Assembly: GCA_963920595.1 (NCBI GenBank)
Contig: OY986949.1
Location: forward strand, 744,001-808,000
Source: Eimeria praecox
Taxonomy: Eukaryota
DNA length: 64,000 nucleotides
Direction of reading: 5' to 3'
Below, one piece after another: positions 38,351 to 51,015 of this stretch (position 1 is the first letter of the stretch; every line of letters begins with the position of its first letter). The notes under the pieces were generated by a model that saw nothing but the letters and a program-made list of their open reading frames with translations, did not search any database and was not told the DNA's origin. The translations under genes were made by a program, and so were the position numbers.

Positions 38351-39166
38351 CCCCAGAAGCTCCTCCCCCACCCCGAAGAGATCCGCCGCCCTTTCAAGCC
38401 ACAAACAAGCTATCCACTAAATATAAATCAGCGGCGGGCATATATCCCCGCCCCTATTCAACGAGGGTCTTTCCTGGGCTAATCCATCCCATCGTCAAAC
38501 GACATTTTGAAAAATCACGAAAAACGGATGACTCGAATGGCAAGAAAGTCCTACACTTTTTATTAATTTATAAGAGAGGTCCAAAGCCAATCCATACAGC
38601 ACTTAAGTATCGAGGCCATGCGAATACGCATGGGGCCATAAGGGAACAGTTATGAGCGGCCCCACAACCCACCTTCAATGCTGTGGATAATTACTCTGTA
38701 AAATATGGCTTTGCTTAGCATTGGAGGAACTATTATTCAAAACATGTAGCCTCTTAGTATAGAGTTTGAGCCACTTATACTGCTGCAGGTAAGTATTCCA
38801 CTAGTTGCATGCCGCTTCCGTAGCGTCCGGGTGAACCTTGGAATGATACACATGGAAGGACCTTGTTATCCACTTAAAACAATATAGAGAAATAGGAAAA
38901 CTTGAGTGCCAATAATTTAACGTGTCTCTCTGCATAGCCTTCAGTTAGTAACTGCGGCATCGCCTGCATGATCCGCCGCGCGCGCTGCGTATGATCATTG
39001 CTGGTGCGTATACCTTATTAGGCTACATGAGCATTTATTTACTAGTCACAGCCAACGTAATTATGACTATGACAAATAACGGCGTACGCACAGGAGGACT
39101 ATAGTGTACAGTTACGAGCTCCCAGTCTTGTGCTCGAGTATTTACTGTAGCCTACTCTTCGTTACA

Positions 39167-39366
39167 ATGGTACTCGTATCCTTACTTGCTCGCAACCTGA
39201 TTACAGAGGATCAAGCAGGCGCTTGAATATAATCAACAGAATCTACAACACGAGCTCTTCTAGCGAAGCGATTGCTGTGCACGCATGTGGGGCGGGCAGC
39301 ATGCTCTCTATCATGGTGGTAATCGTATCTGTACATGCTCGCAGCCTGACTACGGAGGACCAGGCA
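39167..39366 (+). repeat. Diverged ~50-bp direct repeat (39167-39217 / 39316-39366), possibly LTR-derived
   Basis: ATGGTACTCGTATCCTTACTTGCTCGCAACCTGATTACAGAGGATCAAGCA vs GTGGTAATCGTATCTGTACATGCTCGCAGCCTGACTACGGAGGACCAGGCA. Confidence 0.7.
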
Positions 39367-40899
39367 AATGTTTAAAGAGAGTCTACAAAACAGTAAGCGT
39401 TTGAAGAGAGTCTAAACTACCGTCAACAATGGCATCGCATGCAGAAAAGGGGCACTGACTGTGCGGGTATATGGAGATGCCTTGCAGCATTAGCTGCAAC
39501 TAGGAGTGTTGTAGCCCATGACAAGTCTTTCCCCACCACGCTCCCTGCCAGTCGGGTACCTTAGGCCACTGCTCCCACCGTGTTGGAGGCCGGAGGCCAG
39601 ATTAGTTGCCTTTGGCGATCTTTTTTTCCAAGCATTTGACTCCATCGCAGCTCGTGAAGATCGACGACTCTGTTTGCGCCTAGTATCGCCACATGGTTCA
39701 TCCGGGAAGGTGCGAGAAACGAGCCCCACCCAGTTGCGTGTAGCAATAAATGGAGAAAAAAATGTGCCAAGACGCTTAAACAGTATTTTCTGAAATATCC
39801 CTATCAAATTCTCTGCTTTTTCCTCTTGAATAATGAATATTAATTACGGCCTATCCTGTCTTCCGCTGGGGTGACAACCCAAGGTCGGGAGCCTTGCTGT
39901 GCAGAAACAAAGTCGACTTCCGCATCCCATCAGGTATATTTCTATCAAGAACAATTCATGAGGAATGATCCCGTCTTTGCCCAACTTTTAGATATGAACC
40001 GTGCGGCCTCAGCGGCTACGCTTTGGGGAAGGCAGACAGGGCATGAGGGCCAGAAAACTACGGTAATAGATCGCGAGTAGAAATGGGCTATATTTTTATG
40101 ATACGGGGCTTCTGTGTTGACGCAGCTCAGCGCAGCATATTCCTACGGATGCTGTCGGCGTAGTACTCAGGCACTACAATGGTACCCGAATTGAGTCGCT
40201 AGAGGCCCATCCAGATGACAGAAATTATTCTCGGTATTCTATACAAGACATAATGCTTCCGGAAGTCGCTCTGCAGACACCAGGATCTGCAACTGGTTAC
40301 GAGGATAGCGCTATAGCCAACGCATTGACAGGAACGGGGCCAGTGCGAGAATCTGAGGAAGGACACTTCTCCTTCCTCCTTTAGGGGAATAGGCCCTGGA
40401 ATATGAATAAGAAACTATCATTTGATATTTAGGGGTAATTCGCTGGGTGTGGCATATTAGATCGCTTGAGTTCGTCTGAGCAGACATGGTCAGGGCAGAC
40501 AAGTTATGGCATCGTGGAGCATTGTTCACTACATTTGAGGGCTAATCCGGGATTGATTTTGGACCCAAATGAGGTAATACTTGACAAAACGTGCCACTGT
40601 CAATTTCCAACATAGATTAAGACAGTTATGCATGGGTGCACCTACGTAAGGGACGGGTTATGGGCGCTGCCGAAGAGACGACACCCAGAATTTCGACTCA
40701 CCGACTGCATAATGGGTGGCATGCTCACCACATCTCCAATACGCCGAAGCTCATCACGCTATACAAGCCGAAGGTGTAAAAGGAACAGCTGCTATCAGCA
40801 GCACGCCGCCCTGGGAAGGTCTCCATTCATGCTGGTCCGTACCCCGCAGTTGAATATCTGACAGCTATGATAGGCACCTTAAGGGGAATCTTGGAACAC

Positions 40900-43480
40900 T
40901 ATGGAGTAGAGAAGGGCATCACCACTTTGCTACCGCCACGGTCAAAAGAAGGGACCCCAATGCACGCACTTCTACTACGCATCGAAACTAGTTTCACCAG
41001 GATGTGAATTGAACCTATATGGGCTAGTGAGTTCTTGGGGTTCCTAGAAGGTCCAACTCCGCTGTACCAGACCTACTTAAGGACAGCTTTGCTCTATGGA
41101 AATTTGAAACTGGTAAGTGAACGGATGTGTGGAAGATTCTGCAGCCAGATGGCTAGAAGCAAGCCAATGGCTGCCAATGGCTGAATTTGCTTCCGATGGA
41201 CAACGAATCACGATAAGCATACTAAGCGGTTTGCTGTTGTACTGGAGCTGAAAAGGTAGCTGCATAGATGACTTGGGCGTCTTTTATTGCTCCCGTGTCC
41301 TCCGCGGATACAGCTTTTGTTATTACACAAGGAGGACCGGAGCAGAATCCAGCGTGGGAGGGGGATGCGAAAACGTTGGCTATCTACCTTGGGTCTAAGC
41401 CTGATGCGCTGGAGTGCTGCGACCGCAGGGCCCCCATACTCGGATAGTTGAGGCCGGCGAGTGTGAGCTGTGGAGACGGAATTGAGTTCCACAGGGGCCA
41501 GACTAATGGAGATGGGCTATCGAAGAGGCACAGAGCTTGCTGTGAGTACAAGGGAGGAGGGCACCAAGCGGGGGCTTTTCCCAATGGAGGGCAGCGTACT
41601 GAACGTCCGGGGGAAGCGTGTAAAAAGCATGGATGTATGGGGCACTACGCTAGAAATCACGCTATTCGACGTAGTGTGTGGTAACGAGCGCAAGGATTTG
41701 GCAGCAGGTACCTGTTTAAAGTGATGGTGCGAAAGAGTCTCCGCTGAGTGAGAGACGAACGTTCTAAACTGCCTGCGTATGGTAAGGGACTGACTTTGCT
41801 TGTTAGCCACCGGACCTAACGCGATGGCAGTCTCCCCTAAATGGGACGAGGAACAGCTCGGTGTAGAGGAACGACCAAATGACAGGGAATAGAGGAGTGT
41901 TAGCCAACACGGCACAAACAGTGTAGGCATGTATCTACACCGCCTCGAGAGAAAACGGCAGTACCCAAGACGGGGAGTGGCGCTCAAAGAATAGATGAGG
42001 AGCTGAAAGGTGGCAGTATGCCTGACGAGGGTGAAGTTGCGCCGCTGCGGTGGCTGGAGGTGTGCTCCAGCGCTACTCTGTTGAAAGATGTGTAATGTAA
42101 AAAGTAGGAACTGCGGCCATTCTCCGGTTTGGTTTGTCATGGCCTGGTGCATCCATGAGGCTTTATTAGATACGAGGGCGTCACGAAGTACCGTTAGTCC
42201 TAGAAGAGTGGGATGTCTGCAGTTAAAGGCGCGGCTGCTCTCCCAGTAGTCTGCATTCATCGTAGGTAATGGCCAACAACTGCTTATTGAACTAGCAGTG
42301 CCAGGCTTGATGATGCGATGCGAACGTGAATGTTTTCTCCGGAGATTTCCTTAGTGGGCACTAGCCCATATGATCTGGTGCTGGGGATTGAATACTTAAC
42401 TCACCATAATGCTACTTGGTATTTCTAGTCTGGCGAGCTAGGAACCTGTGTGAACAGCAGATGGTGCGAGCTGCCTGTGGTAAGGGAAAAAGAGGGCGAA
42501 CACGGAAAGGAACCTTTGCGGGGGCGCGCCTGAGGATCCCTGATGACCAGGCATGTGACATATTGGCCAAGCAAATGGCAGGCATGACTCCAGAAGAGGC
42601 TGCAAAATCCCCACGCCTCACTTACCTGAAGAGATAAGACAAGGTCGCTAAGGCAAAGATGCGGACTAAGGAGCTGATACGACAGGCTAATGAAGACTAG
42701 GAAAGCATCGAAGGACCACTACAGGCGCATAATGGTGCAGCGGCTTCACCACAAACGAACAGTGAGGCGTCCTAAGGCTAACCGATGGATGCCGAGGGGC
42801 TTTATGCTCTGCACGCATTGAACACTACAAACTAACCAAGGGAAAAAATGTAGAAGCGCCCATGGCCACCATGAAGTCGAATATTGATGAAGGATCGCCG
42901 CGGTCTATCGCTGAATTCGACTAATCAATGTTCCACGAAAATCTATGAAAGACAGGCTCACAGCGTACCGCCAAGGGGATACTGGCGATTCTGCGTGAGC
43001 ACCGAGCGGTTTTGCCTGACCCTTTACTTGCAGGGTTGCCGCCGAAACGCCCCTCGTGCTGCCTGGCAAATTGATTGAGAAGCCTGTTATCTACCCCAGG
43101 ATCGTAGAACACCTCAATTTTCATAAGCAGGAGATAGCTATCTTATCAACAGCATACCTACGATCATGCCTGAGAACCACGATGGTGGACCATGGGAGCG
43201 GAAGGCGCCCATGGTCTATACCTATTAAACTTTAATTCGTCTTACTGTATTGTCTGATTTCCCGACGCCTGCAATTCAAACTATCCTACGGATGTAAATT
43301 AACGCCTATCTCTAACCCTTATTTGACCAAGGTGTCAGAGCTTACCTAGACGATGTCCTCATGCCCACCCTGGTGCCGATCTACTGCAACAAGTGCTATG
43401 TCTCTTCCTCAAGCGCCAGCTTTACCCTTAGTTCCGGCATTGCACGTTTCCAAGGCGCAAAAACACCTTGTTACGGTATA
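40900..43480 (+). mobile_element. Decayed Ty3/gypsy-type LTR retrotransposon remnant (gag knuckle - protease - RT)
   Basis: Degenerate knuckle ACKKHGCMGHYARNH (~41616-41660); protease EALLDTRAS (42157-42183) and PYDLVLGIEYLTHHN (42366+); RT AYLDDVLM (43340-43363). Order is gag-PR-RT. Many stops; boundaries approximate. Confidence 0.75.
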
Positions 43481-43482
43481 GA

Positions 43483-43566
43483 CGGGAAGTTGCGTAAATA
43501 GTGCCCTCTAAATGGTGCAAAAGTCGTAACACGGTTTCCATAGGTGAACCTGCGGAAGGAGCATTC
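43483..43566 (+). pseudogene. 3'-terminal fragment of 18S rRNA (degenerate rDNA unit 1)
   Basis: CGGGAAGTTGCGTAAATAG…AAGTCGTAACACGGTTTCCATAGGTGAACCTGCGGAAGGAGCATTC matches 59727-59810 with substitutions. The rest of the 18S is absent. Confidence 0.9.
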
Positions 43567-43992
43567 AGGCATTGAGTCCCCAAGCGATTGCATCATCGAA
43601 AAGGCTTTTGGGAAGCGTTTTGCGATGCTTTGAGGATGCTGTGGAGAACGCCAACGAGCGAACAAATTAAACCAAACCTTGGATCGCTTTGCTTTTCCCC
43701 ACGACCTCCTTTGCTATAAAAAAGAAGCGAATGAACTCCCTTTCGAGCATTTGATGAATTTTAACCCATCGGCAAGGGTGGAAGATTTGTCGCCTGTAGG
43801 GGCGGTAAGAGCGCATGTGGGGGGTGGGGCTGGTTGGGGCTACATGCCTGCCCGTGCCCCTGCACACATGCAGGCATGCAGGCACCCATACATGTGCCCA
43901 TGCATGCATGCGTGTATGCAATGTGTGCAATCCATCCCACTTCTCCCAGATTTTTGAGCTTTTGTACCAAATAAAAAGCATTTCGCTTTTTT

Positions 43993-44147
43993 ACAATTCC
44001 AGCAATGGATGTCTTGGCTCACGCATCGATGAAGGACGCAGCGAAATGCGATACGCATTGTGAATTGCAGATTTTAGTGAACCATCAAATTTCTGGACGC
44101 ATATGGCGCTGCTGGGATTTCTCGGCAGCACGTCTGTTTCAGTGTCT
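43993..44147 (+). rRNA. 5.8S rRNA (degenerate unit 1, probably pseudogene)
   Basis: GCAATGGATGTCTTGGCTCACGCATCGATGAAGGACGCAGCGAAATGCGATA…, near-identical to 60249-60404. Confidence 0.88.
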
Positions 44148-44521
44148 TTTGATATCTTCCATGAATACACTGCCAACATTGGGCACAGTTTATTGTGTCC
44201 AGCGTGTGGTGGCTTCATATGCGCTTCCCAAAATAATAGGTTTGCCCTAGATGCGTCGTGTGTGAGTTTGTTGTGGTGCCTACGTACTATGACAAGCAAA
44301 GATTGACATTGGTTATCCCTTCGTTCATGAAAGAGATACGGTGGTTGAAAAGCTGCTGATATATATCTCAGGAAGCATGGATGATCGTGGCATACACAAT
44401 GGGTGTATCGCTGGTATAGCTTATAGTGCTACTGAGCCCACTTACATAGGGGGGGGATAACTTGAAGGATATCAACGGCGCTTGATGCGGAGCCCAAAAA
44501 AATACATCTGTTGAAATATTT

Positions 44522-46879
44522 TAGACCTGAAATCAGTCGAGGTTACCAGCTGAATTTGAGCACATTACTAAGCGGAAGAAAAGAAAATAACAATGATTCC
44601 CCTAGTAACGGCGAGTGAAGCGGGAAGAGCTCAAGGTGAAAACCGTGAGTCCCCGATTTGGCCTCACGAATTGTATCCTCTAGAGGCGTTGCCAGTGGGA
44701 AGGCAGGTCTAAGTTTCTTGGAACAGAACTTCAGAAAGGGTGACAGTCCCGTTCTTTGTCCTGCTCGGTGCTCCCCACGTACGGTGCGCTTTTATTGAGT
44801 CGCGTTCGTTGGGATTTGAGCGCAAAACGTGTGATAAGCTCCACATAAAGCTAAATATTGGCATGAGACCCATAGCGAACAAGTACTGAAAAGGAAAGAT
44901 GAAAAGGGCTTTGGAAAGAAAGTTAAAAGTGTCGAAGAGATTGAAAGCTTTTGTCCCTAGGGTGCCGGTGAGGTTCAGTACTTGTATCTCTTATATCTCC
45001 ATTATAGTGCTTGGGGGGTATATTTATTACTGTATTTCACTACGATTTCTTGAGGATGGTCAGCATCAGTGGACGCCCGACTATTGTCCCCAAGGAAGGT
45101 AAGCCTCCCCAACGAAGGTAGGCCCATCGTGGGCTGTTATAGCCTTTGGGTTTGTGGTGTTCAGGTGTTTGCAGAGGTGTATTTTCCCCGTGCGATGGGC
45201 ACACTTTTGAGTACCGTCGCTCTGCGATGCTGCCCTTAACAGTTCCAAACTACCCGTCTTGAAACATAGACCAAGGAGTCTAACGTATGTGCGCGTATGC
45301 GGGCGGAAGCCCTGTATGCACAATGAAAGTGAGAGTAGGGAGAGGTTTTGCTTTTTGCAGCCCTCCCATCTACGACCGACCATGAACTTTGGGAGAGGTT
45401 TGAGTTGTAGCACATCTGTTAGGACACGAAAGATGGTGAACTACGGCTGCGTAGGGTGAAGTCAGGCGAAAGACTGATGGAAGCTCGTAGCGATACTGAC
45501 GTGCAAATCGTTCGTCAAACTTGGGTATAGGGGCGAAAGACTAATCGAATCGTCTAGTAGCTGGTTTCTTCCGAAGTTTCTCTCAGGATAGCTGGAGTTC
45601 AATTAGTTTTATCAGGTAAAGCGAATGATTAGAGGCCTCGGGGGCGCGTTGCCCTTGACTTATTCTCAAACTTTAAATGGGTAAGATCCAGTGGTTACTT
45701 TATTGAACTGCTGGGGTTAATATGAACTCCAAGTGGGCCATTTTTGGTAAGCAGAACTGGCGATGAGGGATGCTCCTAACGCTTGGTTAAGGTGCCTAAA
45801 TACTCGCTCATCAGACACCATAAAAGGTGTTGGTTCATTTTGACAGCAGGACGGTGGTCATGGAAGTCGAAATCCGCTAAGAAGTGTGTAACAACTTACC
45901 TGCCGAATGAACCAGCCCTGAAAATGGATGGCAGTGCAGCGCGCCGATACCAGGCCATTATCGCAAGTTTTCAGCAGTGGACGTTGCGCGATGATGAGTA
46001 GGAAGACATGGGGATCGTAGCGAAGCATTCGGCGTGAGCCTGTGTGGAACGGTCTCTAGTGCAGATCTTGGTGGCAGTAGCAAATATTCAAATGAGAACT
46101 TTGAAGACTGAAGTGGAGAAGGGTTCCATGTGAACTGCAATTGGATATGGGTTAGCCGGTCCTGAGCAAAAACTTAATTGCGGGAAATTCGGGGTTGTAT
46201 TGTCCTCGTATTTTGCGAAAGGGAGTCAGGATAATATTCCTGAGCCAGGACGTGGATACTGCACGGCAACTTGAATGAACTCCTCGACGCAGGCGGGTGC
46301 CCCGGGAAGCGCTGTCTTTGCTTTTTAACAGCCACGTTATAAACATACCCTTGAATCAGAGTATCTGGAGATAGGGTTGACTGGTTGATAAAGCTTCCTG
46401 GCTTCCAGGGAGTGCGGTGTGCTTCTGATTGCCCTTGAAAAGAGGGGGGTAAGTTATTTACACCCTTGGCCTTACCATTAACCGCATCAGGTCTCCAAAG
46501 TTAGCAGCCGCTGGTCGATCGACGAAAGTAAATAAGGGAAGCCGGCAAAATGGATCCGTAACTTCGGGAAAAGGATTGGCTCTGAGTGCTCGGTGAATAG
46601 CGCCAGTGTCTTCATCGTCGGTCAGAGCTGCGCCGGCTCGTTTGTGCTGCGCGGCGCGTCTGCAGATCGCTGGTGCTGACTGCAATGTGACCACTGGTCT
46701 GCGTACACAGTGAGCAGCTAAATCAGAACTGGTGCGAACAAGTGGAATCCGACTGTTTAATTTAAACACAACATTTGCGCAAACGTTCCTAACGCAACGT
46801 GATTTCTGCTCAGTGTTGTGAATGTCAATGTGATGAAATTCTATCAAGCGCTGGTTAACGGCGGACGTAACTATGACGT
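44522..46879 (+). pseudogene. 28S rRNA 5' portion, degenerate, ending at the retrotransposon junction in helix 69
   Basis: Colinear with 60845-63211 but with substitutions in conserved stretches (ACCAGCTGAATTTGAGCACA vs ACCCGCTGAATTTAAGCATA), small deletions (~44935, ~46777) and a local duplication (~45088-45125). Confidence 0.9.
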
Positions 46880-49800
46880 GAAAATTTTAAGTACAGCTGG
46901 GTTTTGGAGGGGCAGGCTGCTTCCTCTGAAAATTATCAATTAGTTTTTGAGTGACGGAGTCCCAACTCCTGAGGCACGCCCTTTTTGTGAGAGCCACTCG
47001 CTTTCACGCGTCTTAAGAGCGCACTTTATACGACCAAGTAGGGCGTCGAATTATTGTATCATAAAAGTATCATATCATGCAGGCTTTGGAACATTCGAAC
47101 GAGATCACCCGCCGCTCCGAAGTCTTCTTTTGCCCCTATAGGCTACATGAAATCCCCAGAGTTTTTGGCTAAGGCGAAAACAGTCGGCATTAATTCCACG
47201 CTGCATAACCCATGCTGAACATTCTGAGATCCCAAGTCTCTGCATGAGTGCCATCTTGTTGTGAGCTATTACGCACTCTTTAAAGGATAACTGCTTCTAA
47301 GCTAACCTCCTAAATATAAATGAAATTAAATTTCTTCTCTTGCAGTGCAGCCAAGGGATCTATATACTAATGCCTGTACTGTTACCCGATATCCTTGAGC
47401 TTCGTACTGTTTTTCGAGGCTTTGATATTTCTCATCTTTTTGTAGACGGGCTGCTCCGAGAGAGTTCTTCTTGTAGTCCTCAAAGACGACCCCCATATCC
47501 ACTGTTGCCAAGTCCTTACGCTTGTCATCTCGAAGAATAATATCTGGCCTTAAGAGTGTGTCCATGCCTTCAGGGCAGGCGTCGATTTGGAGCTTCTTGC
47601 TCCTATTCTTCGCGCTGCTCTTGATTGCTGCTGTAATCCTCTCCAATGCCTTGTTATGTCGGTCTTTGATCTTGCTATCCATGTGATGAGGGCAGTGGTT
47701 GAGGACATGCCGTAGGATATCCAAGTCCTCTGTGCAGTGGCGGCATCGCGATGCCTTTGAGACCTTAATCTTCTACAGGTATGCTCGTGTGCGGAGTTCT
47801 GCAGACCGTGCTCTCAAGGCGAAGATGGCCTCGTTCGGCTTCAGACAGGTGGGGCCTCTCAAGAAAGCATTGCTCTCTGCTGTCTGGTAGGCCCCTAACT
47901 TCCTTTGATCTACCTTTTCCTTCCACACGTCTCGTTGCCACTCCGGTATATGCTGCTTGATGCTTTTAATGATATGCTTCTGATCAAATTCGGAGCCATC
48001 TGTTCGCTGAGCAACATAGCTACCGTTCCTTCTAGTCTCGATGAGCGCCTTGCTCATCCATATCTCCCTGGAAGCTCCGACCATAAGCTTCGAACACCCA
48101 CCAATTTGCCTCTCTTCTTCAAGCAGCCCAAGTCGCGCCCGTTGAGGTAGGCAATAATCGCTTCCCAGTCGCTCTTGCCACTCTCAGGTGTGTAGATGAA
48201 AGCTTTGTTGATGATTTCCAGCAGCTGGCCTTCTGCAATCGCTCGAATCACGCTGTATGAACTGTTGAGCATTTGTACAGCATGATCTATCTGTGTTGCA
48301 GTTGCGGTCATGATGAGGGAAATACACCGAAGACCACCATGTGAGGTGGGCTGGTGAAACATCTCAACGACAGTACTCTTTGAAAACTTGAAGGTAACCT
48401 TTAGAAAAGAGCGTATATTACGATCGAATGCAATCATCTGCTGTCTGTAAGGATAACAGTACCTGAGATGATAGTCAAGACGATACATCACGAAAGCGCT
48501 AATCGCATCAAGTTTCTGCCAGGGGAGGAGTGCTGACCTCAGGAGCTTGGCAATGTCCTTCTTCGCCATGCTCATGGCTCGAAGGATTTGGTTTTGATGC
48601 ACTAAAGATTCCAGTGCACCCTTAACGCCCAGGTACTTGTACGCCTTCCCTAGCTTGACCACTGGCAAGACCTCGTTGTGGAGCTTCAGCTGCACCGGAT
48701 CGGGCTGTTGTCGCTTCTCTCCCCGCTTCCATCCCAGTATAGCACATTTGGACGGTTTGGCCTCTAATCCTGTCCACTGGAGGAAGCGCACCACCGGTTG
48801 ACGAAGTGTAGAAATTCCTGCTCGAGTGCTAGCAACCGTCTTGAGGTCGTCTGCATATGCCATCTGGTAGACCTTCACCGGCTGTTTCCCGACCGTCATA
48901 CGCAGTACGAGGCCTGCATCACAAGCTGATAATCTCTGCAGGAAGACTCCATGGATAGGTTAAAGAGGATCGGGCTGAAAGGATATCCTTGCTTCACTCC
49001 TTGTCGGTTCTCAATTCGTCCTGTGCAGCCCACCTTCATCACGAGGCAGAAGCTCCCTCCTTGATAGAGATCCATGATGATCTCGCAAACGTGCTTTGGT
49101 AGCCTTTGAGCCTTCAAGACAGCCTGTCTGAACTCGTGGGGGACATATCCAAATGCACTTTTCAAGTCGTAGTATGCCATGTACAGCGGTTTGTTGCCTC
49201 CGCTTGGAGTTGAGGATGTTTTGGGCAAGAAGTAGGTGCTCGTGGCACCCATTCACTGGCAAGAAGCCCTTCTGCGACTTTGAGGCGACCCAGGACTGTA
49301 CTGCCCAGTCCGTAATCCTGCTGGCCCACAGTTCTGCGTAAAGTGTGTAGATACAGTCCTGTAGATTGATGGGATTCCAACCCTTCACATCGTTAGGACC
49401 GCCCTGCTTGGGAATCAAAACGGCCACGCTTTCCCTCCACTTCTCTGGAGTACACCGATGGCGAGAGCACGCATTGTATATCGGTGTCATGGCTGGAACA
49501 AGCACTCGTCGAACCTCTTGTACACAAAGAACCCTATCCCATCTGGCGCTGCTGCAGACTTGAGGTTGCTCTTTGGCAGCTGAGAATGCACATCCTCTTC
49601 TGTAAAGTATAGATCAATCGCATACGCTCCACTAGGAGCTGAAGCCAAAGCGCCTAAGAACTCATGAGCAGCACTAGAAGTGGAATCAATTGATTGCTCA
49701 GAGTGCTGATCTCGAAAGCCTGCCTCCAGCTCACTGAGTTGGATGGGACAATCTTGGCTTGCAGGTTGATCTTCGACAGCTAGTAGTTGCTCCACACACT

Positions 49801-50660
49801 TCTAGCTGTCTTTCATGTAGAGTGTTCGGAGGTTTTGTGCTGACTCTTCTTTGAGGATCATGATGAGGCAACGACGCGTGGTTCGTAGATTTCTTTCAAG
49901 GGCCCGCTTCATCATTTTATCATCAAGAAATGCTCCAGATTGTTTCCCCTGCTGTGCTATCTCCTCTGCTAGGAGTGCTTGAAACACCTTGTCGACGTTT
50001 CCCTGTGCCTGAACCTGCTTCGGAGGCACGCCTGTCCTTCGGATTCCTGAGTTCTCGGTGCTCGTTGGGGGGGTTCTTCTTGCGACGCTGATTTGTTTCC
50101 TTGGGATTCTTATCTGCAAACCAAATCACATCACAAAGCTGCGTGGTGAAGCCTTCTGCTGCGGTTTCCACTTCTTCCCACGTGCTGTCGACCATCTTGG
50201 TAGCAGCAGCTTTGCGCAAGTTCCGTCACTTGCCTTGTAAGCCTTGTGTCCGTTGGTTATTGTAGGCATGTGCTGCTTTGCTGTTGCTGCGGGCGTTGCC
50301 TGTCTGCCCACCATTGCACGATCCCCTGCTAGTTTTGTAGGAGTCAGCTGTGGAGGACTCTCTGAAGGTGTTTCTGGCCCCCTCCATCATTTCGCTACTC
50401 GGAGCCTTTCATCCAAGTTTTGTACACCTTCATCTTCCTCCTCGATGTGCTGCCTGGCGTTCCGCTTGCTGGGATGGAGCGCCAAGGGGGTTGCCACACT
50501 TTGGTACTCGCTAATTATTTGTCTTCTGCTCAGAGCGCAAGGGTTGTTTGCTCGCCTACATGTGTGAAGAGCCAATCTCCTTTGGGACTTGAATGAGCGA
50601 CAGCAGCTGAGACAGTGGGCAGGCCGTTCGTTCGCCCCCGCTGGAGTTGTTTTGATGCCC
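46879..50660 (-). mobile_element. Non-LTR retrotransposon, RLE type (NeSL/R5/Utopia-like), copy 1, decayed, antisense in 28S
   Basis: Fragmented ORF: N-terminal zinc finger HCLSCCRSFKSQRRLALHTC (~50560-50618); RT motifs AAPDGI, INLQDCIY, SQKGF, YDLKSAFGYVPH, GVKQGYPFSPILFNL, AYADDL, PSKC, YKYLG, LLPWQKLDAI; CCHC CRHCTEDLDILRHVLNHC; RLE RHN…RPDII…D…KDEKY; ~200-nt 3' UTR. Confidence 0.93.
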
Positions 50661-50661
50661 T

Positions 50662-51015
50662 CTGGGGCGTGAACGCACAGCGTGGTTTGTACAACGTGAA
50701 ATTAGCACTGACTGTATCCGTCTAAGCCATCGTATTTGGGGTTTTCACATGGCAGATAATGGCACGAGGCGAGCAAGAGGAGGAGGTCGTTCTCGTGCTA
50801 ACACATCTTAAGTTGCTTGACACACTAATGCGCTAATAGAACATCAAGCCTAACACGCTCGGTAGCAACACTGAAGGTTTATTCAAACGCGTGAAGACGG
50901 TTGGCTCGACATCCGGGCGTGCCGTAGGAGTTGGAGCTCCCTCGCATCCACCTTTTCAACCTTTTTTGCTCGAGGCGGCAACGCCCAACTCCAAAACCCA
51001 GCTATTAAATTTTCA
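50662..51015 (+). mobile_element. Inverted, 5'-truncated 3'-end fragment of the same retrotransposon family (diverged subfamily)
   Basis: 50671-50820 translates as ERTAWFVQREISTDCIRLSHRIWGFHMADNGTRRARGGGRSRANTS*VA*, codon-aligned with the copy-2 C-terminus ERSAWIVQREISADCIRLSQKIWGFHVADRGDRRPRSGGRSRGNAPKSA*. The 3' UTR ends CTCCAAAACCCAGCTATTAAATTTTCA, like the other copies. Confidence 0.9.

What the first reader, a model, noticed from the sequence alone, without database searches (positions are those of the whole stretch)
46879..51015. Element carries an inverted copy of its own 3' end at its 5' side, forming long imperfect inverted termini (TG…CA)
Seen: 50662-51015 (+) encodes the last ~50 codons plus the 195-nt 3' UTR of the family. 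It is joined back-to-back to the N-terminal zinc-finger region of copy 1, so the composite begins TGAAAATTTTAA and ends TTAAATTTTCA. The fragment is clearly diverged in DNA but conserved in protein (VQREISTDCIRLS vs VQREISADCIRLS), so it comes from another subfamily or is old. No ATG is visible upstream of the zinc finger. Inference, three options: (a) both ends of one break were primed on two element RNAs; (b) a nested opposite-strand truncated insertion; (c) a fixed architecture, analogous to Penelope inverted pseudo-LTRs, supplying a promoter or a 5'/3' RNA panhandle for an antisense element.
Basis: partly seen in the sequence, partly recalled or inferred. Interest (0 to 1): 0.8.

Follow-up and report, generated by a model that had tools for sequence, protein, structure and literature searches.

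The report
One-off head-to-head retrotransposon junction
In a chicken-gut Eimeria parasite, a broken retrotransposon inside a ribosomal RNA gene is joined back-to-back to the tail of a different, related retrotransposon; this is a single-locus junction, likely left by a deletion or rearrangement, and not a built-in inverted-end design.

Summary
The inverted piece is real: 50670-51014 (+) is 46 codons plus a 203-nt 3' UTR of the same family of restriction-like-endonuclease (RLE) non-LTR retrotransposons. It is only 62-64% identical to copies 1 and 2 and belongs to another multi-copy subfamily. It is not a fixed terminus. Nine long relatives carry 90-300 more residues where copy 1 breaks. Contigs bridging the junction sit at single-locus depth, while the family is roughly 50-fold deeper. 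TG…CA is a boundary slip: T46879 is a paired base of 28S helix 69, and A51015 starts the flanking repeat. Neither the 3' half of 28S nor copy 1's missing N-terminus follows the fragment, which argues against one doubly primed break or a plain nested insertion. Best reading: two independent, 5'-truncated insertions, an old one in 28S and a younger one at a non-rDNA site, fused 5'-to-5' with loss of the DNA between. Similar bridges are known from L1. The better lead is the host family: likely NeSL/Utopia-group, inserted antisense at one 28S site in two rDNA units of Eimeria.

The parts
44546..46879 (+). 5' two-thirds of a 28S rRNA gene (unit 1), ending in helix 69; the 3' half is absent
   Evidence: Rfam LSU hits; helix-69 pairing shown on the matching letters of unit 2; 2165/2387 identical to unit 2; no downstream 28S motif or LSU hit
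46880..50669 (-). Copy 1 (subfamily A): 5'-truncated, degenerate RLE non-LTR retrotransposon, antisense to 28S; zinc finger, RT, CCHC, PD..D endonuclease, 3' UTR; several frameshifts and stops
   Evidence: translations, tblastn with P0001/P0010, Pfam and PDB on relatives; exact match to a public E. praecox gene model
47261..47334 (.). 74-nt AT-rich insert in copy 1, absent from copy 2 and from another copy in run X2
   Evidence: gap between direct-repeat families D7 and D3; joint 47260-47335
50564..50614 (-). N-terminal C2H2-like zinc finger of copy 1, 19 codons inside the break
   Evidence: weak zf-C2H2 hits on relatives P0010 and P0002
50669..50670 (.). 5'-to-5' junction, blunt or about 1 nt of overlap
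   Evidence: P0010 homology ends at 50671; X4 record 27 starts at 50670; bridged by X1 and X2 contigs at single-locus depth
50670..51014 (+). 3' fragment of subfamily B: 46 codons, stop at 50809-50811, 203-nt 3' UTR ending AAATTTTC
   Evidence: peptide 38/46 to P0032 (E. brunetti), 36/46 to P0001, 33/44 to copy 2
51015..51050 (.). Right flank: start of a very high-copy non-rDNA repeat; the likely insertion site of the B fragment
   Evidence: depth bins and loose ends at 51015 and 51047-51053; rough depth ratio about 2,800-fold; no Rfam family at its curated score
63212..64000 (-). Copy 2 (subfamily A) at the same 28S base of rDNA unit 2; its 5' end lies outside the window
   Evidence: 368/406 identical to copy 1 in the ORF part

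Best explanation
This is a single-locus junction between two 5'-truncated retrotransposons of different subfamilies, likely inserted at different times and likely fused head-to-head by a deletion or rearrangement. Inferred order: (1) copy 1 inserted by target-primed reverse transcription, antisense, into 28S helix 69 and then decayed with its rDNA unit. (2) Later a subfamily-B RNA was primed at 51014/51015 in a non-rDNA repeat and was left 345 nt long. (3) Its 5' end became joined to a break inside copy 1 at 50669/50670, either during that insertion (retrotransposition-linked deletion) or by later end-joining. This removed at least 90 codons and the 5' UTR of copy 1, the 3' half of 28S and whatever lay between. 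The 'inverted termini' are the two homologous 3' ends facing outward and likely have no function. Shown: structure, boundaries, subfamily difference, single-locus depth, missing parts. Inferred: order, timing and repair route.
For: Single-locus depth: the junction contig has depth 841 in X1 (three zero-difference neighbours 825-900; a fourth 1176) and 545 in X2 (neighbours 553-589). Family-A contigs in X3 are about 48-60 times the locus-specific depth, and site 50875 in the fragment about 21-48 times. Relatives: 9 of 9 long proteins examined (6 clusters) start with Met and have the first zinc-finger Cys at residue 110-324, so their ORF continues where copy 1 breaks. X4 record 27 carries 191 nt of other sequence upstream of 50670. 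Different subfamily under purifying selection. Age contrast within run X4: 1/125 differences for the fragment versus 305/3018 for copy 1's body, Fisher p = 7e-5. No 28S 3' half, no leftover N-terminus at E<0.1, no shared 4-mer between the flanks. [quoted passage not shown]
Against: Depth figures are contig word depths that the tool warns are not copy numbers. X1 and X2 are one sample and may be the assembly's source. In the independent study X3 the listed pieces stop at 50572 (31 of about 13,000 pieces shown), so bridging there was not seen. The age contrast rests on 125 nt and assumes that X4 record 27 represents family B; part of copy 1's 10% could be subfamily difference. No DNA of another full-length copy's 5' end was read, and copy 2's 5' end is outside the window. 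Insertion-linked and later deletion cannot be told apart.
Confidence: 0.76

Rival explanations
1. Synchronous bridge: two reverse-transcription events, one at the 28S site (A) and one at the repeat (B), ran at the same time and their cDNA ends were joined, as in L1-mediated translocations and inversions.
For: [quoted passage not shown] Each half has its own clean 3' junction.
Against: Copy 1 is frameshifted and about 10% from the abundant family sequence, while the fragment is about 1% from its relative. The two halves should have aged equally.
Confidence: 0.11
2. Plain nested insertion: a truncated B copy landed in the opposite orientation inside copy 1, and other elements later separated it from the remainder.
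For: Nested insertions are common here: a Gypsy-like remnant truncates unit 1's small-subunit gene, and a 74-nt insert sits in copy 1.
Against: No remainder of the N-terminus or of 28S lies in the 7 kb after the fragment or elsewhere in the window, and the flank at 51015 is not element sequence.
Confidence: 0.05
3. Fixed architecture: the inverted tail supplies a promoter or a 5'/3' panhandle for an antisense rDNA element, like Penelope inverted repeats.
For: An antisense element cannot use the sense rRNA co-transcript, so it needs another promoter (inference). The arms could pair: -275 kcal/mol against -146 +/- 8 for 40 shuffles. A and B have similar rough abundance. Penelope-like elements often carry an adjacent inverted 5'-truncated copy (PMC8557442, passages).
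Against: Single-locus depth of the junction. Relatives are coding at that position. The arms come from different subfamilies, and the longest identical run is 14 nt. Wobble-compatible versus opposite transitions are 28:21, p = 0.39. The pairing energy follows from homology alone. The protein is RT plus RLE, not GIY-YIG.
Confidence: 0.04
4. Assembly chimera joining two repeats.
For: The region is repeat-dense, and the only bridging runs are one sample.
Confidence: 0.04

Closest known systems
L1 retrotransposition-mediated rearrangement bridges (10.1101/2024.08.27.596794; PMC11702581; passages read)
   Same: Two distinct 5'-truncated non-LTR copies, inverted, joined at their 5' breakpoints, each 3' end on a different target, with non-matching flanks.
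   Different: Here the elements are RLE-type, fixed in a protist genome, from two subfamilies of apparently different age. No poly(A), no heteroduplicated target and no reciprocal junction were seen.
NeSL clade, R5/LIN lineage of planarians (LIN9_SM, LIN24_SM, LIN26_SM; PMC4640811 section 10 and S6 supplement passages)
   Same: RLE non-LTR elements specific for 28S; the S6 junctions show LIN9/24/26 lying antisense to 28S, with LIN24/26 about 80 nt from this site. R5 is recalled, not read, to insert 8 bp upstream of the R2 site, the position found here.
   Different: Apicomplexan host; a different base than LIN9/24/26; no poly(T) tail. Phylogenetic membership was not tested against named references.
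Oomycete Utopia-type elements
   Same: Among the nearest non-Eimeria proteins (31-35% identity), 4 of 12 scanned carry Pfam RNase_H upstream of RT and a fifth the related RVT_3; three clusters are named from Globisporangium. This matches the oomycete Utopia layout.
   Different: The Eimeria proteins have no RNase H, and the target is 28S, not U2 snRNA.
R2
   Same: Single ORF, zinc finger-RT-CCHC-RLE layout; best solved-structure hits are R2 proteins, E 5e-69; target within 8 nt of the R2 nick; 5' truncation and upstream deletions are typical (PMC3414825, passages). Eimeria 'LINE R2' models were already noted (PMC9141347).
   Different: Antisense orientation and a different base; R2 is reported only from animals.
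Penelope-like elements with inverted 5'-truncated copies (PMC8557442)
   Same: An inverted, 5'-truncated copy directly at the 5' end gives inverted repeats around the unit.
   Different: There the structure recurs within a family, comes with direct pseudo-LTRs and uses a GIY-YIG nuclease. Here it is single-locus, cross-subfamily and RLE.

Membership tests
Penelope-like pseudo-LTR/inverted architecture | GIY-YIG endonuclease with telomerase-related RT | tested here: not met
   Pfam on full-length relatives gives RVT_1 and zf-RVT, no GIY-YIG; best structures are R2 proteins
Penelope-like pseudo-LTR/inverted architecture | Inverted copy derives from the same element and recurs among copies | tested here: not met
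   62% identity to copy 1's own 3' end; junction at single-locus depth
Penelope-like pseudo-LTR/inverted architecture | Direct pseudo-LTR or hammerhead ribozyme | tested here: not met
   No direct repeat inside the unit; no hammerhead among Rfam hits for 50400-52500 or in the whole window at gathering score
LTR- or TIR-type termini (TG…CA) | TG and CA are the element's own first and last bases, with a target duplication | tested here: not met
   T46879 is helix-69 rDNA; A51015 belongs to the flank repeat; no shared 4-mer between the flanks
Retrotransposition-mediated rearrangement bridge | Two 5'-truncated copies, inverted, joined at 5' breakpoints, with flanks from different loci | tested here: met
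Retrotransposition-mediated rearrangement bridge | Synchronous origin; reciprocal junction or heteroduplicated target site | tested here: inconclusive
   The age contrast argues against synchrony; a reciprocal junction could not be searched because no genome is held
RLE-clade non-LTR retrotransposon | One ORF with N-terminal zinc finger, RT, CCHC knuckle and PD..D endonuclease; 5' truncation; no LTR | tested here: met
R2 | Sense-strand insertion at the canonical 28S nick | tested here: not met
   Antisense, 8 nt upstream of the recalled R2 nick in the Rfam consensus, in 2 of 2 copies
NeSL clade (R5/LIN, Utopia) | RT groups with named NeSL, R5 or Utopia sequences in a tree | tested here: inconclusive
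   No named references on hand; nearest hits have the oomycete RNase H-RT layout, which is a lead only
NeSL clade (R5/LIN, Utopia) | Sequence-specific insertion in a multicopy RNA gene | tested here: met
   2 of 2 subfamily-A copies in the window sit at the same 28S base; not shown genome-wide

The most novel reading that the evidence does not exclude
Eimeria carries an undescribed, recently active NeSL/Utopia-group family whose subfamily A inserts antisense into helix 69 of a variant 28S gene class (compensatory GGACGU/ACGU stem). Subfamily B has switched to a non-rDNA repeat of thousands of copies that mimics the target: an X3 loose end before 51015 ends ACCTTAAGA, in register with the antisense 28S site. 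The head-to-head junction would then be a fossil of these nucleases cutting rDNA units out of arrays and rearranging chromosomes in an apicomplexan.
Probability: 0.25. Interest if true: 0.6.

Novelty: new member of a known kind. Interest (0 to 1): 0.27.

Why it matters
The inverted ends themselves matter little: one dead locus with a known kind of junction. The host family matters more. It appears to be a 28S-specific RLE retrotransposon outside animals, with intact ORFs in public data (24 members in P0001's cluster; the 15 listed are all 1458 aa). It raises a testable question: how an antisense rDNA insert is transcribed without the rRNA co-transcript. It could also offer a target-switch pair (A versus B) for studying or engineering site-specific insertion. 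No paper with this was found in searches, but Repbase and the supplements of recent RLE surveys were not seen.

Tried and rejected
No whole genome is held, so other copies' 5' ends could not be read. A fine-scale view of contigs over the junction alone was not obtained, so the 3' flanks and upstream sequence of other B copies remain unseen. Related-locus scans of metagenome and viral contigs found no relative. The flank motif had 0 matches in metagenome contigs. A degenerate 3'-end pattern in prokaryotic genomes gave 3 loci, all chance: no blastn, tblastn or Rfam match. No RNA holder was listed among runs; this is no evidence on expression. ARAGORN found 0 tRNA genes, and Rfam hits at 50400-52500 are all below gathering scores. 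The earlier-findings index was empty three times. The protein atlas gave no answer. The peptide comparison used the wrong frame and was redone. The R5 paper and one review were not held. The panhandle was rejected on wobble counts. The LTR/TIR reading was rejected on boundaries. No RT tree was built, for lack of named references.
Full report
Setting. The window is coccidian. Copy 1 matches a public Eimeria praecox gene model (P0033, 99% over 290 residues; its first 220 residues map letter for letter, in five pieces including out-of-frame ones), and other named relatives are from E. necatrix, E. mitis and E. brunetti. Two rDNA units lie in the window. Each 28S gene is interrupted at the same base by an antisense non-LTR retrotransposon: copy 1 at 46880-50669, and copy 2 from 63212 to the window end. 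Full-length relatives are single ORFs of 1380-1536 aa with zinc finger, RT, CCHC and PD..D nuclease, most similar to R2 among solved structures. Copy 1 is broken by several frameshifts and stops.

The observation. The + strand after 50670 aligns along its length to the 3' ends of copies 1 and 2, far above 200 shuffles (scores 123.5 and 155.5, shuffle maxima 35 and 31.5). It holds 46 open codons, a stop and a 203-nt UTR. Identity is 62% to copy 1 and 64% to copy 2, against 81% between the copies. Against copy 2, 27 of 41 differences are at third positions and 19 of 44 codons differ silently, so the divergence arose between working subfamilies. The peptide is closer to P0032 (38/46) and P0001 (36/46) than to copy 2 (33/44). 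I call it subfamily B.

Boundaries. The closest long relative, P0010, aligns to the - strand up to 50671, and a contig in run X4 matches the fragment from 50670, so the join is at 50669/50670 with at most about 1 nt shared. At the left end, Rfam's alignment of unit 2 shows helix 69 with a compensatory stem (GGACGU…ACGU for consensus GGGAGU…ACUC). Unit 1 has the same letters, so rDNA runs through T46879. The insertion follows model position 2271, 8 nt upstream of the R2 nick (nick position recalled). At the right end, contigs of a high-copy repeat begin at 51015 with varied upstream sequence. All three element ends read AAATTT(T/C)C. The TG…CA signature therefore comes from taking one flanking base at each end. 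The flanks share no 4-mer.

Is the junction real, and is it general? Four of six listed runs were laid. X1 and X2, one sample and possibly the assembly's source, each have a zero-difference contig across the junction. Depths are 841 and 545, the same as neighbouring locus-specific contigs (825-900, one at 1176; 553-589). In X3, another study, family-A contigs are about 48-60 times deeper than locus-specific ones, and site 50875 of the fragment is 21-48 times deeper across X1-X3. These are rough word-depth ratios, not copy numbers. X3's listed pieces stop at 50572 and only 31 of about 13,000 pieces were shown, so independent bridging was not seen. At the protein level, 9 of 9 long relatives examined, from 6 clusters, start with Met and have the first finger Cys at residue 110-324. 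Copy 1 breaks 19 codons before that Cys, so it lacks at least 90 residues. X4 record 27 has 191 nt of different sequence upstream of 50670. The inverted tail is thus a single-locus feature as far as these data reach; no other copy's 5' DNA was read.

How it arose. One break primed at both ends would leave the 28S 3' half beyond the fragment. It is absent: no match to the downstream motif at 3 mismatches in the window and no LSU hit in 51015-58014. A plain nested insertion would leave copy 1's N-terminus there; the best tblastn hit is E 0.13 and off-locus. Within X4, the fragment differs at 1 of 125 nt but copy 1's body at 305 of 3018 (p = 7e-5). At 4 of 5 amino-acid-changing codons checked, the abundant variant gives P0010's residue and at 5 of 5 P0001's, so copy 1 carries private decay. 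This favours an old A copy and a younger B insertion joined with loss of the DNA between (0.76) over a synchronous bridge (0.11), nesting (0.05), fixed design (0.04) or chimera (0.04). Whether the loss happened during the B insertion or later cannot be told. A panhandle is possible energetically (-275 versus -146 +/- 8 kcal/mol for 40 shuffles; a perfect duplex gives -701), but shows no wobble excess (28:21, p = 0.39).

Comparison with what is known. Inverted, 5'-joined pairs of truncated L1s are described as rearrangement bridges (10.1101/2024.08.27.596794, passages; PMC11702581, passages). R2 5' junctions often delete upstream target (PMC3414825, passages). Penelope-like elements often have an adjacent inverted truncated copy (PMC8557442, passages), but the defining features tested here are not met. 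For the host family, a survey already classed 17 Eimeria models as 'LINE R2', with no mention of 28S in its main text (PMC9141347, passages; supplements not seen). Antisense 28S insertion is known for planarian LIN9/24/26 of the NeSL clade (PMC4640811, passages, section 10 and supplement passages; PMC5035012, passages). That R5 inserts 8 bp upstream of the R2 site is recalled; the paper was not held. The nearest non-Eimeria proteins include oomycete RNase H-RT elements with the Utopia layout. Passages of PMC13580325, PMC11912684 and PMC3954772 added nothing on this family. Searches listed no paper on an Eimeria 28S-specific element; Repbase and bioRxiv supplements were not seen.

A lead. In X3, the loose-end consensus before 51015 (4 contigs, agreement 0.92) ends ACCTTAAGA. 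This equals, in register, the nine antisense bases upstream of the 28S insertion point in the Rfam consensus. It suggests that B cut a 28S-like site. The matching loose ends in X2 and X4 share only about AAGA, the X3 sequence need not be this locus's empty allele, and the host's own uninserted 28S was not seen.

Verdict. Interest 0.27, most of it owed to the surrounding rDNA-targeting family.

Noticed in passing
window 46855-46879 and 63185-63211: Both inserted rDNA units carry a compensatory variant of the normally conserved 28S helix-69 stem (GGACGU…ACGU versus consensus GGGAGU…ACUC), possibly a divergent rDNA class that the element prefers.
   Followed up: partly
window 46879/46880 and 63211/63212: Two copies of an RLE retrotransposon insert antisense at the same 28S base, 8 nt upstream of the R2 nick, in an apicomplexan; intact ORFs exist in public data.
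   Followed up: partly
window 51015-51050: A 36-nt motif with very high depth (rough ratio about 2,800 times single-locus in X3), varied flanks and one tandem form; one upstream flank mimics the antisense 28S target.
   Followed up: partly
window 51700-51830 (-): Two tRNA-like T-arm/B-box segments inside the high-copy region, suggesting a tRNA-derived SINE-like repeat; ARAGORN calls no tRNA.
   Followed up: no
window ~39000-43480: Degenerate sequence with a YLDD motif at 43343 (Gypsy-like RT, label recalled) abuts and truncates the small-subunit gene of rDNA unit 1.
   Followed up: partly
window 47261-47334: 74-nt AT-rich insert in copy 1; X4 contigs match part of it with unrelated flanks, so it may be a piece of another repeat.
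   Followed up: no
window 43475-46879 versus 59719-63211: The two rDNA units are only about 91% identical in 28S; unit 1 looks like an orphan pseudogene, and neither lies in a tandem array within the window.
   Followed up: partly
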